Shown one piece after another: positions 6,701-15,700 of a stretch of DNA of 64,000 nucleotides. Origin of the DNA: Escherichia coli (GTDB lineage Bacteria; Pseudomonadota; Gammaproteobacteria; Enterobacterales; Enterobacteriaceae). The position numbers are program-made. The DNA lies in assembly GCF_051903065.1 (NCBI RefSeq), contig NZ_CP178439.1; one strand, given 5' to 3'. How positions within the stretch are numbered: position 1 is the stretch's first letter; each line of letters opens with the position of its first letter.

Positions 6701-9700
6701 TCACCATTGTAGATCTGAACGATGAACACAATTTTCTCGTACTGAGCGTCAAGGGAATTCAGGCGCACAATAATTTGCTCATCGTCACCATCACCGGCTC
6801 CGGTTCGGTTATCGCCCGTCAGCCAGATATTTCCTGACTTATGGCGAAGGCTGTTGAAAAAGATGATATCGCCATTCACAAGCGTTGGTTTACCATTTTC
6901 CACATTGCCGAGATCGGTCACCTTTCCGGCTGAATTACACAGGAAAGCGATCACATCAAGGTCGTATTCTTCTTCTTTTTTACCAAAGATCCCGCCGAGG
7001 AAACCTTTCTTTTCCTCATTAATATCCCAACCCAGGCCGATAGTAACGGACGAGAGATCGTATTCATTTTTTTTCAGGCTTACGCCCTGGCCTTTGCTCA
7101 GACTGACAGACATGACATCCCCTTAATTAATAAAATTATAAGACCACGTTTACTTCTGGCGGCGGCGGTGGCAGGTCTTCAAGACCGATCACTTCTTTTT
7201 TGCTGGACTCCACTTTCTGACTGCCTACCGAAATGCTCGCACTGACCCATTTAAAGAAAGCTTTAATCGTCGAACTGTCAGCTGTATCGAGCTGAACCAC
7301 GATTTCAGTGATTTCTTTGAGGACGCTGGTATCGGCATCATGCCCGGCTGCACATGCCACAACAACGCCGGTTCTGGCCGCTTTAAAGTCATTCAGGCCT
7401 TTACGCCAGTCATCATTCGGACTTCCATCCGTCATCAGGAATACAAGGGGACGCCAGTCACCTTTAGTGTCAGCCGTCGTTTTCTGTACTTCTTTGGCAA
7501 TGGAGCTGGCCGTGAGGGAAAGCGCTTCGCCAAGAGAGGTGGTGCCGCTGGCTGTTAGTGCTGGCATCTGGAAACTCAGGAGGTCTGTCAGGGGGACTGC
7601 CTGTCGGGCTGAAGAATCAAAGGTGATCACTGACACGTAAGCCGTTTCGAGTGCATACGGATCCTGTTTCAGCGTGGTAAGCAGCGTCTGAACGCCATTC
7701 TTAACCGCTTCGATAGGCTCTCCGTGCATAGAGCCGGACGTGTCGAGTAGCAGATATACGGGTAAGCGTCTCAAATGTAATTCCTTCTTAAGAGATCGGA
7801 AGAGGAGAGTAGTTTCAGGAAGAGGCCAGAGTTTGTAGATTTGATAAAACGGCACGACATCTGTCGGGTGGAGATTAAATACTCAGAAGCGGCATTAAAG
7901 AAATAAGTTAACCACCATTGAATTACCGACATGTGAATGGCCTCTTATCAGAGAAAAAAATTCAGACCGTACTGGAATATAAATTTCTGAAAAAAACTCC
8001 GGCAAAAATAAACTTTCTTATGTATGAAAATCATCATACATCACAGATCTGCATGAATGGAGTGTAAATCGCCCAAAGATTGATGTGTAGCACAAGAGGA
8101 TGTCAAGACACCAGGTTTTGTAGGCAGAAAGGCGCTGCTGACATTGCGGGAGGAGAATAGATCAAAACTCCGTCACGCAGATACAGAGGTGAAATATGAC
8201 AAAACCGGGGTTTTCACCCCGGTCTGAGATTTAGCGTCAGGACTTTTTAGCGCTGTATTCTTTTATCAGTTCATCAACGGAGTGCAGAGCCAGCTTCTCT
8301 ACCGCTTCACTTCGGGTCGAGCCACTCAGCGCAGCCAGACGGTCAATTTTTCTTAAAATCCGCATGCGTAGCGATAATGACACGGCTGTTTTTTTATCCT
8401 TATCGAGTACGACCTTCCCTGTGGACTCACCGGTTTTCAGTTCAGCATTCTGTGCGAGCGCTTCATTCATCCGGCGAAGGGTCTTTTTATCCAGCTGGCC
8501 CGGATTAACGAGATGGTAGGAATGACCTGCCTTGCTGTATTTGATCTCCGCAGAATATGACTCGCGTAGCTCTTTGAGTGCCCGGGTTAATGTCGGCTCT
8601 GAGCATTCCAGACTGGTTATAATGTCGGCAGCGGAAACGGGCTTGCCGGTGCCCAGTAAGTTGGCAAGCTTAAAAATCCGGGCCTGTCTGGTATTTAATT
8701 GCATCGTAAGATTTAGCCTGCTTAAAGGGTTAGTGGTTCAATAGGCTGAAAAATGAAGGTACTGCTCATCTTTCGAATAACCGGGTGATCGCCTAACGCT
8801 TCAACCGGATCAATGTGTTCTAAGCCTGCAAAATTTACTGACGACATCTGGCTGCGACTGCATTTGCAGGACAGGATATACTCATCCTCCAGATAGCCGG
8901 TCCGCTTACTGACCCGTTGCGTAAAGCCTGACACAATCACGTTGTCGAACGGTAGCGTATGTAAAACGATACCGACCAGGCGGAACAAGCAGCCATGGAC
9001 GTGGCGGGCATAGTTTTCGCGTACGGCTTTTTGCGTCATGGCTTTTTCCGTCAGCTCCGTGCCCCGGGCATTAACGCCGTAAATCTTATCAGGGAAATCT
9101 TCAATCTCAGCTAAATCAACATCCAGCAGGACTGCTGATAGCTCCGGCTTTACTTCAAATGCAACAAGCGTTTCACGCGGCCATTCAGTTTCTGCCAGCA
9201 CACCCGCCAGGTATGATTCGAAAAACGCGGCGTCTGTCCGGAACTGCTGCCGGGCATCTGCCTGAGCCGTGGCGAGCCGTTTTTCATGTTCTTCAGCCTC
9301 AAACTTCCAGTTTGCATACTGTTCGGCCCAGGCCGTCCGTTGTTGCTGGTACCGGTGCTGTCGAAGGGTATTCTCACGCTCCACATCAATCAGCTCCTGC
9401 TGCCACCGGCGAAGATTTTCGGCGTGGCGCTCAGCTTTAGCTGATTCCGATTCAAACCATTTACCCAGAAAACTAATGCCTTCGCTCTCGGCAGGCTTTT
9501 CCGGCAATGCAAGATAGTCTGGCTTTTCTGGACGCACCGGTGCCGGAACCTGAAAAGGCGACGTTCTGTTATGCAGGTATACTGCTTCCAGCTCTGCCCA
9601 GCTGATGCCTGTTTTAGGATCCGGCGTCAGCTCGTGAATATTACGGATTGCGGTCACCGCTGACATGAGATCAGCGGCTTCCTCCTCAAGCGCCTGTCTG

Positions 9701-12700: not shown

Positions 12701-15700
12701 GGTCTGAAAGAGCGTGTCGTCAAGGTCGCTCAGAACAACGGGTTTATTCATAGGTAACAATCTCCACGACGGGCGCAACCTCAGCCAGGGCTTTAAGAAG
12801 CTGCGTGTCAATACTTTCTGCGGGTGTCTCAGTACACACAAGAATACGGTCAAACTGCTGGTGGGCGACGTTATAGACAAAATTGGGGATGCCCAGCCCG
12901 TAGTTATCCGTAAAGGAAATGGCGGACTCAATGGCATAACCAACGGCGATAGGGGAGCGGGTGGTCGAACCATAAAGTGCCTGTGCTCCGGCAGCTTCGA
13001 GCCGTTCAGCAAGCAGGAACGGCTCCCAGACGAATTCCCCGGTCCCGAGAACCAGAATACGTTCCCCCTTGCGGACGGAGACCTCATGGCCGAGATCGGC
13101 CGCAGGTGCGAGCATCCCCAGTCGACCCCAGGACTGTTTTCCCAGGATGTCCCATTCTCCGCGTGAAGTTACGTTGACTTTCGGCATGTCCGGGACAGGT
13201 GCATCAGGTAATGGGGTCCATCCCCACTGACCGCTTACAAGCGAAACCGAAGTGACGGGCAAGGATGTGCGCTCCGACAGGGCGTTGCTACTCCAGTCGG
13301 TAAGCGTAACGGCGATAACCTGTTCAATATGTTGAAGCTTGCCGGTATTACGCAGGGCAGAAAGCAGGTTAATAAAGGTATTACCGGTGGTTGCCTCGTC
13401 ATCAATCAAAACCAGCGTTCGTGCGTTGGTAACACGACGTCTTTTCTCTTCATCATCTGGCAGATAGATCAGATGATCGGTGGCGTGGCTGTGTTCTTCC
13501 TTGAACTCGCAAAGTAACGTGCCATCAACCGGGTGACGGGTAGAGGTCAGATAGACAGATTCACGATGCTGGTGGCGCACTTCATCAAACACACCGGCCC
13601 CTAGCCCAACGGCGGTTTCAGCCATACCGATAAAAAGTACGGGCCCTGTCAGCGTTGCGGGGAACTGGCTGGCAAGCTGTCTGTAGGCCTGCCGCATGAC
13701 TGAGGGTGGCACGGGAATGTGCCTGCCGAGTACTTTGCTGACAAACAGAAAGGCGCGTTTCGGGTTACGTCTTTCAGCGATATCAAACAGGTCATCGAGC
13801 GAAACATCACCCTGGTCGCGGGTTACCTGTATCGTACCGCATGAGAGGGTACGGCGATAAATCATATCTTCGAGGGTATCAGACATAAACACGCCTTAAT
13901 TCAGATGGTTAGAGAGTGATTCCGGGTAAACGATGACATCTGTGATGGATCTCACTGCAACCGGAGAAAAGGTATTTCTGGCGCTCTGGATCACCGCATC
14001 TTCAGACATCAGACCGAGCTTAAAGGCAGCAAACAACCCGGGAAGGTTCACCCCGCTGTGAAGGGTATAACCCACCCCGCCTGACGGACGCATGTTGGTT
14101 TCAAGCAGCACCGGGTTGCCATTCACATCGTTTCGCGTCTGAACATTCACCAGCCCGTCGGCCTTCATAACCCGGGCGCAGTCACAAGCCAGTTCCCAGG
14201 CGCTTCCTTCGTTTACCAGATACTGGATAGCCCCTTCCTTACGGCGTCCCACGGCTGCGAGTATTTCGCCCTTATCCGCGAGGATATCGACGGAAAATTC
14301 CGGGCCTGGCAGGTACGGCATCAAAACAAGGGGTTTAAACGACTCAGAAGCCGATGCTGCTGCAATATACTGTTGCGGACTGACCAGACGATGTTCGGGA
14401 TGATTAAAGACGGCCATGGGCGAAGCACTGTCATCAAAGCGCCAGAATCCCATGCCATAGATACCCGTCACCGGCTTCACGCATACCGGGCTGTCCGAGA
14501 ACGGCGGGGCCGCGAGGTGCGTCTTTAATTCTGCCAGCGTATTCACCCGCCAGGACGGTACGACCGGGAGCCCGTTTTGCTCCATAAACTGAGCAAAAGT
14601 AACTTTTTCGTCAGCCAGAGTTAACCAGTCGACGCCTGTTGCACCGGTAGTAAGGGTGGCTCCGGTCGATTCAATGGCTGAACGGTGTTCTTCAAACCAC
14701 TGGCTGTTACGGCCAGTATGAATATGGTGGATGCCGTAGGTCTGAATGGTTTCCTGAATAAACTGAAGACGTTTTTGAGGATCTTCAGGTTCAGTCAAAG
14801 AATAATCGGCAACGGAAAGAATTTCATGTCTTTCGTTACGGTGGGAGGCAAATACGGTAATAGCAAAATTATTTTTTTGTGCAAATGATTTTACCCCCTG
14901 AATAATATCTCGCTGGGAGGACAAACCTTCCATAAACCAAATTTTCTTGTTCATTTTTTTTAATTATCCGGAACGCCATGCAAATTTATGATTGAGAAGT
15001 GAGTCTATGAGTGTCTACGCTACATGTCAATCATAATATGATTAATAACTTCAGTGGTTATGGAGTGCGTCAGTGTTTTTTTTAGTGCCTTATAACGTAT
15101 TGATATTTAAATTAAAAATAGAAAAATGAACACCATGAAAAGGATTTATTTTTGTGTTTTTGAAGAAAACTACCAAAATTTCCCTTGTCAGAGAACTTCA
15201 TCATGATATGATTTTCTTCGTCAGTTACTAAATATACCTTTGATTGTCTCGGTCATTACCATTTTAAGGAATAAAACATGGTTTCATTAGTTAAGAACCA
15301 GACGGTATCACTCAGCAAAGAATCATCTGCATTAAGCCAGCTTCATTTCGGTCTCGGTTGGGATCCGGTTAAGAAAAAAGGTCTTCTTGGAGGATTGTTT
15401 GGAGGCAACGACTCAATCGATCTCGATGCTGGCTGCGTATTAATGGACAGCACCGGTAAAACAATTGACACCATCTGGTTCCGCAAACTGGAATCCACCT
15501 GCGGCGCTGTTGTGCACAGTGGCGATAACCTGACCGGTGAGGGTGACGGTGACGATGAGGTGATTAAGGTCAACCTCTCCCGACTGCCTGCAAACGTTGA
15601 ATACCTGGCGTTTACGGTAAACAGCTTCCGTGGTCAGTCGTTCAATGACGTCGAAAACGCGTTCTGCCGCGTTGTCGATCAAACCGGCAAAGAGCTGGCT

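What the first reader, a model, noticed from the sequence alone, without database searches (positions are those of the whole stretch)
8722..14954. ter-linked biosynthetic gene set predicted to make a nucleoside-like metabolite
ATP-grasp, phosphoribosyltransferase (VLIDDEATTGNT), HAD phosphatase (LSDLDDTLF), a second PRTase-like/StiP-like protein and a citrate-lyase-like TIM barrel are tightly packed or overlapping on one strand, followed by a DUF4236 protein and terW. The enzyme set is consistent with assembly of a ribosylated small molecule; the product is, to my knowledge, unknown.
Basis: partly seen in the sequence, partly recalled or inferred. Interest (0 to 1): 0.5.

Follow-up and report, generated by a model that had tools for sequence, protein, structure and literature searches.

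The report
Known ter-linked nucleoside-like biosynthesis operon

Summary
Window 8237-14954 (minus strand) is one tightly packed operon. In order it encodes an ATP-grasp protein, PRTase_2+TRSP, a HAD-IIB phosphatase, StiP(PRTase fold)+PELOTA, a CitE/HpcH-like C-C lyase, a DUF4236 protein and TerW. It is read divergently from terZABCDEF.

Pfam E-values run from 1e-21 to 1e-114, and the catalytic motifs are conserved. The DNA is 100% identical to E. coli IncHI2 plasmids, and 956 of 5426 complete E. coli genomes carry it.

In 81 loci from several phyla, PRTase-HAD-StiP-lyase is contiguous in 70, and 73 have TerD-family genes alongside. The ATP-grasp gene is present in 57, TerW in 12 and DUF4236 in 4.

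The interpretation repeats the published prediction of Anantharaman, Iyer and Aravind (2012). Several of the matching Pfam families carry the Ter/tellurite context in their names or descriptions. I found no report of the product.

Three additions:
- The P. aeruginosa crystal structures deposited as "trehalose phosphatase" (6D3V/6CJ0) are the ortholog of this module's HAD.
- Natural PRTase-HAD and ATP-grasp-PRTase fusions exist.

Verdict: real, ordinary, already known.

The parts
15002..15030 (-). Promoter-like site (TTGACA-17-TAGACT) in the 323-bp AT-rich divergent region between the ATP-grasp gene and terZ
   Evidence: (10 of 12 matches). This is a consensus match only and was not tested.
13896..14954 (-). 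ATP-grasp amidoligase-type enzyme (352 aa), first gene of the operon
   Evidence: PF15632 ATPgrasp_Ter 1.7e-37. NCBIfam CPS-like PRK12767 1e-12, below cut-off. Invariant K117, K160, E219, D223 and E285-x-N287-x-R289 in 26 homologs. Present in 57 of 81 loci.
12744..13886 (-). Type I phosphoribosyltransferase (PRTase_2) fused to a Rossmann-like TRSP domain (380 aa)
11978..12751 (-). HAD-superfamily phosphatase, subfamily IIB-like (257 aa). It overlaps the PRTase gene by 8 nt.
   Evidence: PDB 6D3V/6CJ0 at 2.7e-43 over the full length. NCBIfam HAD-IIB/MPGP 3.6e-9, below cut-off. Invariant D9, D11, T66, K154, G222, D223, S224 and D227 in 31 homologs. Present in 78 of 81 loci.
10897..11976 (-). StiP domain (divergent PRTase fold) fused to a PELOTA/L7Ae-like putative RNA-binding domain (359 aa)
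9941..10897 (-). CitE/HpcH-like TIM-barrel C-C bond lyase (318 aa). Its start codon overlaps the StiP stop codon by 1 nt.
   Evidence: PF15617 8.2e-114. Weak hits to RipC/CitE and PDB 3QLL. Invariant E43, D44, R83, R85, E134, R164 and D169 in 29 homologs. Present in 74 of 81 loci.
8722..9930 (-). DUF4236 protein (402 aa) of unknown function. It is in the operon here but is not part of the conserved enzyme core.
   Evidence: PF14020 1.2e-21, residues 3-56 only. The N-terminal domain is shared with phage proteins of unknown function. No PDB relative. Present in 4 of 81 loci.
8237..8704 (-). terW, a winged-helix regulator and the last gene of the operon
   Evidence: Annotated TerW in RefSeq. Weak HTH_11/WYL-type hits. 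Reported to regulate ter expression (PMC12054061). Present in 12 of 81 loci, the Enterobacterales ones.
8202..8225 (-). Intrinsic-terminator-like hairpin (10 pairs, 6 G-C) directly after terW
15278..21497 (+). terZ, terA, terB, terC, terD, terE and terF, the divergently transcribed partner operon
   Evidence: RefSeq annotation. TerF has TerD plus vWA-TerF-like domains. TerD-family genes adjoin the module in 73 of 81 loci.
1546..7774 (-). TerY (vWA) x2, TerX (TerD), TerY-C, PP2C phosphatase and a protein kinase: the TerY phosphorylation module downstream of terW
   Evidence: TerY-family genes present in 14 of 81 loci.

Best explanation
The five enzyme genes at 9941-14954 are the five-gene version of the Ter-associated biosynthetic module.

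Most likely mechanism:
1. The canonical type I PRTase (PRTase_2-TRSP) transfers 5-phosphoribose from PRPP to a small acceptor, probably a base or a base-like acid.
2. The adjacent HAD-IIB phosphatase removes the 5'-phosphate, giving a ribosylated, nucleoside-like product.
3. The ATP-grasp ligase and the CitE/HpcH-like lyase build or decorate the aglycone or a side chain, by forming an amide bond and by forming or cleaving a C-C bond.
4. The StiP PRTase-fold protein, with its L7Ae-like domain, either adds a second ribosyl unit or couples the pathway to an RNA.

The product is presumed to act with the TerB, TerD and TerC proteins in stress or phage responses. TerW regulates the locus.

Shown here: gene content, folds, conserved catalytic motifs, operon structure, conserved synteny with ter genes and gene fusions.

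Inferred: every chemical step, the acceptor, the product and its target.
For: - Domain hits run from 1e-21 to 1e-114.
- The PRTase_2 model is a type I PRTase with an intact DDExxTGxT PRPP loop.
- HAD motifs I-IV are invariant, and the protein is a full-length homolog of a crystallised Mg-dependent sugar-phosphate phosphatase.
- The ATP-grasp and lyase catalytic residues are invariant.
- Gene junctions of 9, -8, 1 and -1 nt suggest coupled expression.
- PRT2-HAD-StiP-lyase is contiguous in 70 of 81 loci from Gamma-, Beta- and Alphaproteobacteria, cyanobacterial-type MAGs, Bacteroidota and Nitrospira. TerD-family genes are adjacent in 73.
- Natural fusions PRTase_2-TRSP-HAD and ATPgrasp_Ter-PRTase_2-TRSP exist.
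- A jumbo phage carries PRT2-HAD-StiP next to TerD, a membrane protein and a vWA protein.
- PRPP-dependent phosphoribosyl transfer followed by HAD-type dephosphorylation is an experimentally established two-step logic in Bcs3 CriT/CrpP (PMC10299916).
- The same prediction is published, as summarised in PMC11994780, PMC7824862 and PMC8115787.
Against: - No metabolite has been detected by anyone, as far as the searched literature shows.
- terZ-F alone gives tellurite resistance in E. coli K-12 (PMC8115787), so the module is not needed for the classic phenotype.
- The StiP PRPP loop is non-canonical. It is an invariant VDGWTGKG with one acidic residue, and by my comparison with the canonical motif it is two residues shorter.
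- The ATP-grasp gene is missing from about 30% of loci.
- The only biochemical datum for any member, trehalose-6-phosphate hydrolysis by the Pseudomonas HAD ortholog, points to sugar phosphates rather than nucleotides.
Confidence: 0.6

Rival explanations
1. The module acts on RNA rather than making a free metabolite. In one version, the StiP-PELOTA protein binds an RNA through its L7Ae-like domain and phosphoribosylates it from PRPP, after which the HAD removes the phosphate. In the other, it is a PyrR-like ligand-sensing RNA-binding regulator.
Against: No Rfam family matches in 8-15 kb. The canonical PRTase_2 and HAD pair, which also occurs as a fusion, fits small-molecule chemistry. No RNA partner is known. 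The lyase and the ATP-grasp enzyme have no obvious role on RNA.
Confidence: 0.15
2. The acceptor is a sugar or another hydroxyl compound rather than a nucleobase. StiP would work like a glycan phosphoribosyltransferase, and the HAD would act as its phosphoribosyl-phosphatase, giving an O-ribofuranoside.
Confidence: 0.1
3. StiP is a cysteine protease, as RefSeq names it after work in Acinetobacter baylyi, so the gene set is not one pathway.
For: RefSeq and Pfam use the name 'cysteine protease StiP'. PMC11994780 cites Reichert et al. 2013 for protease activity and a tellurite phenotype. H227 is invariant and C229 is nearly invariant.
Confidence: 0.05
4. The HAD is a true trehalose-6-phosphate phosphatase that serves trehalose synthesis.
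For: The homolog 6D3V/6CJ0 is deposited as trehalose phosphatase and was used as a TPP in inhibitor work (PMC6838324).
Against: The gene sits inside the ter module in P. aeruginosa plasmids too. It is fused to PRTase_2 in some organisms. No trehalose-6-phosphate synthase gene is annotated in these loci. The trehalose routes described for P. aeruginosa in the review PMC7549927 are TreYZ and TreS.
Confidence: 0.03

Closest known systems
Ter-associated biosynthetic module, five-gene form (Anantharaman, Iyer and Aravind 2012, Mol Biosyst 8:3142)
   Same: It has the same five protein families, the same link to terD, terB and terC, and the same predicted output, a nucleoside-like metabolite. Some of the matching Pfam models name the Ter/tellurite context (ATPgrasp_Ter; StiP is described as 'Tellurite-like stress resistance').
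   Different: Nothing substantive differs. This is a member of that module. I could not read the original paper, which is not held, so I relied on later summaries.
ter loci of IncHI2 plasmids, chromosomal ter islands of E. coli, and K. pneumoniae ter plasmids
   Same: The DNA is 100% identical to IncHI2 plasmids such as pMTY18780-1. It is 95-99% identical in 707 further E. coli records, and most matching places are chromosomal. The layout is the same two divergent operons described for K. pneumoniae NTUH-K2044 (PMC8115787).
   Different: None in the module. Relative to pMTY18780-1, this window carries an IS21-type insertion downstream of terF.
PRPP-dependent ribofuranosyltransferase plus HAD-like phosphatase (Bcs3 CriT/CrpP; Thermobacillus composti 7SHG)
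   Different: Those enzymes are domains of polysaccharide polymerases that act on glycans. Here the proteins are soluble, encoded by separate genes in a ter context, and accompanied by a second, canonical PRTase.
P. aeruginosa 'trehalose 6-phosphate phosphatase' (PDB 6D3V, 6CJ0)
   Same: It is a full-length homolog of the window HAD (E 2.7e-43, about 37% identity). It is encoded at the same position of the same module on P. aeruginosa plasmids.
   Different: It is named for an in vitro activity. Its genomic context argues that trehalose-6-phosphate is not the physiological substrate.
Nucleobase salvage and de novo PRTases (APRT, UPRT, XPRT, OPRT) followed by 5'-nucleotidases
   Same: The fold and PRPP loop of PRTase_2 are the same, as is the sequence of phosphoribosylation followed by dephosphorylation.
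   Different: PRTase_2 has an added TRSP domain and an invariant HSHA motif, and its acceptor is unknown. It is not a housekeeping gene. It travels with ter genes on mobile elements.

Membership tests
Ter-associated biosynthetic module (five-gene form) | PRTase_2 + TRSP protein | tested here: met
Ter-associated biosynthetic module (five-gene form) | HAD phosphoesterase next to the PRTase | tested here: met
   The genes overlap by 8 nt. Present in 78 of 81 loci.
Ter-associated biosynthetic module (five-gene form) | Second PRTase (StiP) with a PELOTA domain | tested here: met
   PF11202 4.6e-89 and PF15608 2.6e-25. The PRTase and L7Ae folds are confirmed.
Ter-associated biosynthetic module (five-gene form) | ATPgrasp_Ter ligase and C-C_Bond_Lyase TIM barrel | tested here: met
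   PF15632 1.7e-37 and PF15617 8.2e-114. Catalytic residues are invariant.
Ter-associated biosynthetic module (five-gene form) | Genomic linkage to terD, terB and terC genes | tested here: met
   Divergent from terZABCDEF here. TerD-family genes adjoin the module in 73 of 81 loci.
Ter-associated biosynthetic module (five-gene form) | Makes a nucleoside-like metabolite | not testable with these tools
   This needs metabolomics or enzymology. No report was found in the searched literature.
Type I phosphoribosyltransferase | PRPP loop with two adjacent acidic residues followed by TGxT, and the PRTase fold | tested here: met
Type I phosphoribosyltransferase (applied to StiP) | Canonical DD-xxx-TGxT PRPP loop | tested here: not met
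   The loop is an invariant VDGWTGKG with one acidic residue and is shorter. The fold criterion is met. hhalign against PRTase_2 is weak, at probability 7%.
HAD superfamily phosphatase | Motifs I-IV: DxD, T/S, K and GDxxxD | tested here: met
   D9, D11, T66, K154, D223 and D227 are invariant in 31 sequences.
Trehalose-6-phosphate phosphatase (OtsB-type function) | Works with a trehalose-6-phosphate synthase | tested here: not met
   No such gene is annotated in the loci examined. The Pfam Trehalose_PPase hit is only 0.0077, below cut-off. The gene lies within the ter module.
Cysteine protease StiP | A protease fold | tested here: not met
Cysteine protease StiP | Conserved catalytic Cys/His | tested here: inconclusive
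   H227 is invariant and C229 is conserved in at least 90% of sequences. Their spatial relation could not be inspected.
Dual-domain ribofuranosyltransferase (PRTase-like transferase + HAD-like phosphatase) | PRPP-type transferase fold with a HAD phosphatase partner | tested here: met
Dual-domain ribofuranosyltransferase (PRTase-like transferase + HAD-like phosphatase) | Glycan acceptor and a polysaccharide gene cluster context | tested here: not met
   The neighbours are ter genes only.
Known anti-phage PRTase effectors (retron type III-A and similar) | Match to the defence-system PRTase models | tested here: not met
   The PADLOC PRTase_III-A hit is only 8.5e-4 at 16.7 bits over about 60 residues. 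The other module proteins have no hit.

The most novel reading that the evidence does not exclude
StiP-PELOTA may be a ribofuranosyltransferase-like, PRPP-dependent O-phosphoribosyltransferase. It would add a second ribose to the nucleoside made by PRTase_2 and the HAD, or to an RNA bound by its L7Ae-like domain. The end product would then be a disaccharide-type nucleoside or a ribosylated RNA that serves as a phage or stress signal or effector. The reported activity of the HAD ortholog on the disaccharide phosphate trehalose-6-phosphate would fit such a substrate.
Probability: 0.15. Interest if true: 0.65.

Novelty: already known. Interest (0 to 1): 0.22.

Why it matters
The ter locus is common in important pathogens. 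It is present in 956 of 5426 complete E. coli genomes here, and it occurs on Klebsiella, Salmonella, Enterobacter and Pseudomonas plasmids. It has been tied to tellurite, phage and colicin resistance and to gut fitness.

The product of its enzyme module has stayed unidentified since it was predicted in 2012. Finding that product would explain what the Ter proteins sense or do.

This finding does not move that question forward, because it restates the published prediction. Two side results are useful. Crystal structures and an assay already exist for one module enzyme under the name "trehalose phosphatase". The "cysteine protease StiP" label is not supported by the fold.

Tried and rejected
- The primary papers could not be read because they are not held: Anantharaman 2012, Whelan 1995 and Cross 2018. 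I relied on later papers that summarise or cite them.
- Single-sequence searches of the PDB gave nothing significant for PRTase_2, StiP, the ATP-grasp protein or DUF4236, and only weak CitE hits for the lyase.
- PADLOC gave no meaningful defence-system hit for the module.
- PHROGs hit only the DUF4236 N-terminus.
- Rfam found no RNA family in 8-15 kb.
- hhalign of StiP against PRTase_2 was weak, at probability 7%, so the PRTase assignment of StiP rests on the fold searches.
- The 120 best hits of the search for homologous proteins for StiP were all at least 72% identical and of little use for modelling. I used orthologs extracted from the fetched loci instead.
- My first synteny count wrongly dropped HAD genes because stop-to-stop ORFs overlap the PRTase gene. 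I recounted with alignment envelopes.
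Full report
**What is there**

The window is an IncHI2-type plasmid segment. Bases 8200-15300 are 100% identical to several E. coli IncHI2 plasmids such as pMTY18780-1. Related copies occur in 956 of 5426 complete E. coli genomes, with 698 matching places on chromosomes and 287 on plasmids.

Seven genes lie on the minus strand:

| Gene | Coordinates | Main evidence |
|---|---|---|
| ATP-grasp | 13896-14954 | PF15632 "ATP-grasp in the biosynthetic pathway with Ter operon", 1.7e-37 |
| PRTase_2+TRSP | 12744-13886 | PF15609 5.8e-64; PF12500 1.4e-23 |
| HAD | 11978-12751 | PDB 6D3V 2.7e-43; NCBIfam HAD-IIB 3.6e-9 (below cut-off) |
| StiP+PELOTA_1 | 10897-11976 | PF11202 4.6e-89; PF15608 2.6e-25 |
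| C-C_Bond_Lyase TIM barrel | 9941-10897 | PF15617 8.2e-114 |
| DUF4236 protein | 8722-9930 | PF14020 1.2e-21 |
| terW | 8237-8704 | RefSeq annotation |

Spacings between successive genes are 9, -8, 1, -1, 10 and 17 nt. A promoter-like site lies in the 323-bp AT-rich region shared with terZ, and a 10-pair hairpin with a T-rich tail follows terW. This looks like one operon, read divergently from terZABCDEF (15278-21497). The TerY/TerX/PP2C/kinase genes follow it at 1546-7774.

**Are the enzyme assignments sound?**

- **HAD.** It has only weak Pfam hits, but all four HAD motifs are invariant. It hits NCBIfam HAD-IIB models below their cut-offs. It is a full-length homolog (E 2.7e-43) of PDB 6D3V/6CJ0.
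- **ATP-grasp.** It keeps the two ATP-binding lysines and the E-x-N-x-R Mg site.
- **Lyase.** It keeps an invariant ED pair and several arginines, and it weakly resembles CitE/RipC-type acyl-CoA lyases.
- **StiP.** RefSeq names it "cysteine protease". Its confident model (pLDDT 94.5) matches only PRTase-fold proteins plus a C-terminal L7Ae/eL30/Pelota-type domain. No protease fold appears among the listed hits. The StiP PRPP loop is unusual: an invariant VDGWTGKG with one acidic residue.

**Is it really linked to ter, and what is the core?**

I fetched 80 loci from one-genome-per-species contigs using the PRTase_2 profile and added one P. aeruginosa plasmid locus. I then searched their six-frame ORFs with the window proteins. 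Counts out of 81 loci:

| Feature | Loci |
|---|---|
| HAD | 78 |
| StiP | 78 |
| C-C lyase | 74 |
| ATP-grasp | 57 |
| TerD-family genes | 73 |
| TerB | 50 |
| TerC | 47 |
| TerY-family genes | 14 |
| TerW | 12 |
| DUF4236 | 4 |
| PRT2-HAD-StiP-lyase contiguous and co-directional | 70 |

Several of the loci that lack a gene end at a contig edge. The set spans Enterobacterales, Pseudomonas, Acinetobacter (including A. baylyi), Alpha- and Betaproteobacteria, cyanobacterial-type MAGs, a Bacteroidota MAG and Nitrospira. It is the best 80 by similarity, so it is biased toward relatives of the query.

Natural fusions exist: PRTase_2-TRSP-HAD and ATPgrasp_Ter-PRTase_2-TRSP. The jumbo phage vB_AbaM_ME3 has PRT2-HAD-StiP next to a TerD-type protein, a membrane protein and a vWA protein.

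The conserved core is therefore four enzymes, with the ATP-grasp gene as a frequent fifth. DUF4236 and TerW are lineage-specific passengers of the operon.

**What is known already**

The idea is published. Later papers attribute the prediction to Anantharaman, Iyer and Aravind (2012): a module of two or five enzymes next to ter that makes a nucleoside-like, probably pyrimidine-derived, ribonucleoside.
- In that model the PRTase and HAD are always present, with a second PRTase, an ATP-grasp ligase and a TIM barrel in the larger form (PMC11994780).
- The product is suggested to signal threat detection (PMC7824862).
- The Klebsiella ter locus is described as a "putative biosynthetic cluster" divergent from terZ-F, and terZ-F alone is sufficient for tellurite resistance (PMC8115787).
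- terW is reported as protective and regulatory (PMC4633105 and PMC12054061).

None of my literature searches found an identified product. The library is incomplete, and I could not read the 2012 paper itself.

**Most likely mechanism (inferred)**

1. PRTase_2 couples PRPP to a small acceptor.
2. The HAD removes the 5'-phosphate.
3. The ATP-grasp enzyme and the lyase make or decorate the aglycone.
4. StiP-PELOTA adds a second ribosyl unit or ties the pathway to an RNA.

The phosphoribosyl-transfer-then-HAD-dephosphorylation pair has a direct experimental precedent in Bcs3 CriT/CrpP (PMC10299916).

Confidence that the module makes a PRPP-derived ribosylated small molecule is about 0.6. The nature of the acceptor is open.

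**Side results beyond the literature I could read**

First, 6D3V/6CJ0 is deposited as P. aeruginosa "trehalose phosphatase" and was used as a TPP in inhibitor work (PMC6838324). A P. aeruginosa plasmid encodes a protein 99.6% identical to it at the HAD position of the same module. The order there is ATP-grasp, PRTase, this HAD, StiP, lyase, a second HAD, then TerD-family, TerB and TerC genes. A megaplasmid copy at 92.7% identity has the same layout.
- No trehalose-6-phosphate synthase gene is annotated in these loci.
- The trehalose routes described for P. aeruginosa in the review I read are TreYZ and TreS (PMC7549927).
- The trehalose-6-phosphate activity is therefore probably a side activity.
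- No paper returned by my literature search held both the trehalose-phosphatase term and the tellurite-resistance term.

**Rivals**

- RNA-directed action or PyrR-like regulation by StiP-PELOTA: 0.15.
- A sugar or hydroxyl acceptor instead of a base: 0.10.
- StiP as a protease: 0.05.
- The HAD as a true trehalose phosphatase: 0.03.

**Verdict**

This is a real, correctly read and well-conserved gene set. It is already described in the literature and in Pfam, so novelty is "already known" and interest is low. The open question of what the product is remains worthwhile, and the experiments listed in the next steps can address it.

Noticed in passing
L002 11992-12750; L084 8992-9750: A P. aeruginosa plasmid encodes a protein 99.6% identical to the one crystallised as 'trehalose phosphatase' (PDB 6D3V/6CJ0), at the HAD position of the ter-linked module. 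Its neighbours are a PRTase on one side and StiP on the other. A megaplasmid copy at 92.7% identity has the same layout. The trehalose assignment is probably an in vitro side activity.
   Followed up: yes
P0135, P0219, P0122 (about 635 aa); P0173 (715 aa): Natural fusion proteins join PRTase_2-TRSP to a HAD domain, and ATPgrasp_Ter to PRTase_2-TRSP. For P0122 the HAD part is inferred from length only. These fusions support consecutive steps in one pathway.
   Followed up: partly
window 10897-11976: The RefSeq and Pfam name 'cysteine protease StiP' is not supported by the predicted fold, which is PRTase plus an L7Ae-like domain. H227 and C229 are nevertheless conserved and unexplained.
   Followed up: partly
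L084 6666-7805 and 11784-12512 (second HAD also at L002 14784-15512): Pseudomonas versions carry two extra genes. One lies between the ATP-grasp and PRTase genes and is annotated as a trypsin-like peptidase, with a TerD-family match in my survey. The other is a second HAD (HAD-IB) after the lyase. The whole module is co-directional with terZABCDE there.
   Followed up: no
window 1546-7774: The TerY phosphorylation module lies downstream of terW: two vWA TerY proteins, TerX (TerD domain), a vWA protein with a TerY-C domain, a PP2C phosphatase and a protein kinase. From my own knowledge, a TerY-phosphorylation triad has been reported as an anti-phage system.
   Followed up: partly
window 22806-24775: An IS21-type element (transposase with an rve core, plus an IstB ATPase) sits downstream of terF. 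The identical-module plasmid pMTY18780-1 has only small hypothetical genes there.
   Followed up: partly
window 1-708: The left end of the window falls in an IS100 (IS21-family) element. The istB helper ATPase gene ends near 708.
   Followed up: no
window 26816-28141: A HipA-family toxin gene with an upstream HTH gene, followed by two HNH endonuclease genes. The annotation comes from the matching plasmid. This is IncHI2 backbone.
   Followed up: no
window 33000-64000: A mosaic resistance region. It includes a GC-rich block (0.66 at 34-36 kb), an RNA-OUT match at 42966-43035 (minus strand), an attI/aminoglycoside-leader match at 62959-63034 (the attI type of integrons) and many IS26-sized ORFs.
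   Followed up: no
L085 6980-9871: The jumbo Acinetobacter phage vB_AbaM_ME3 carries PRTase_2, HAD and StiP genes next to a TerD-type protein, a membrane protein and a vWA protein. It has no lyase or ATP-grasp gene. This was already noted in PMC7824862.
   Followed up: partly
window 8722-9930: The N-terminal DUF4236 domain matches nine phage protein families of unknown function. The remaining roughly 340 residues have no detectable relatives in Pfam, NCBIfam or the PDB. The gene recurs near ter at two different positions, in Enterobacterales and in Pseudomonas.
   Followed up: partly
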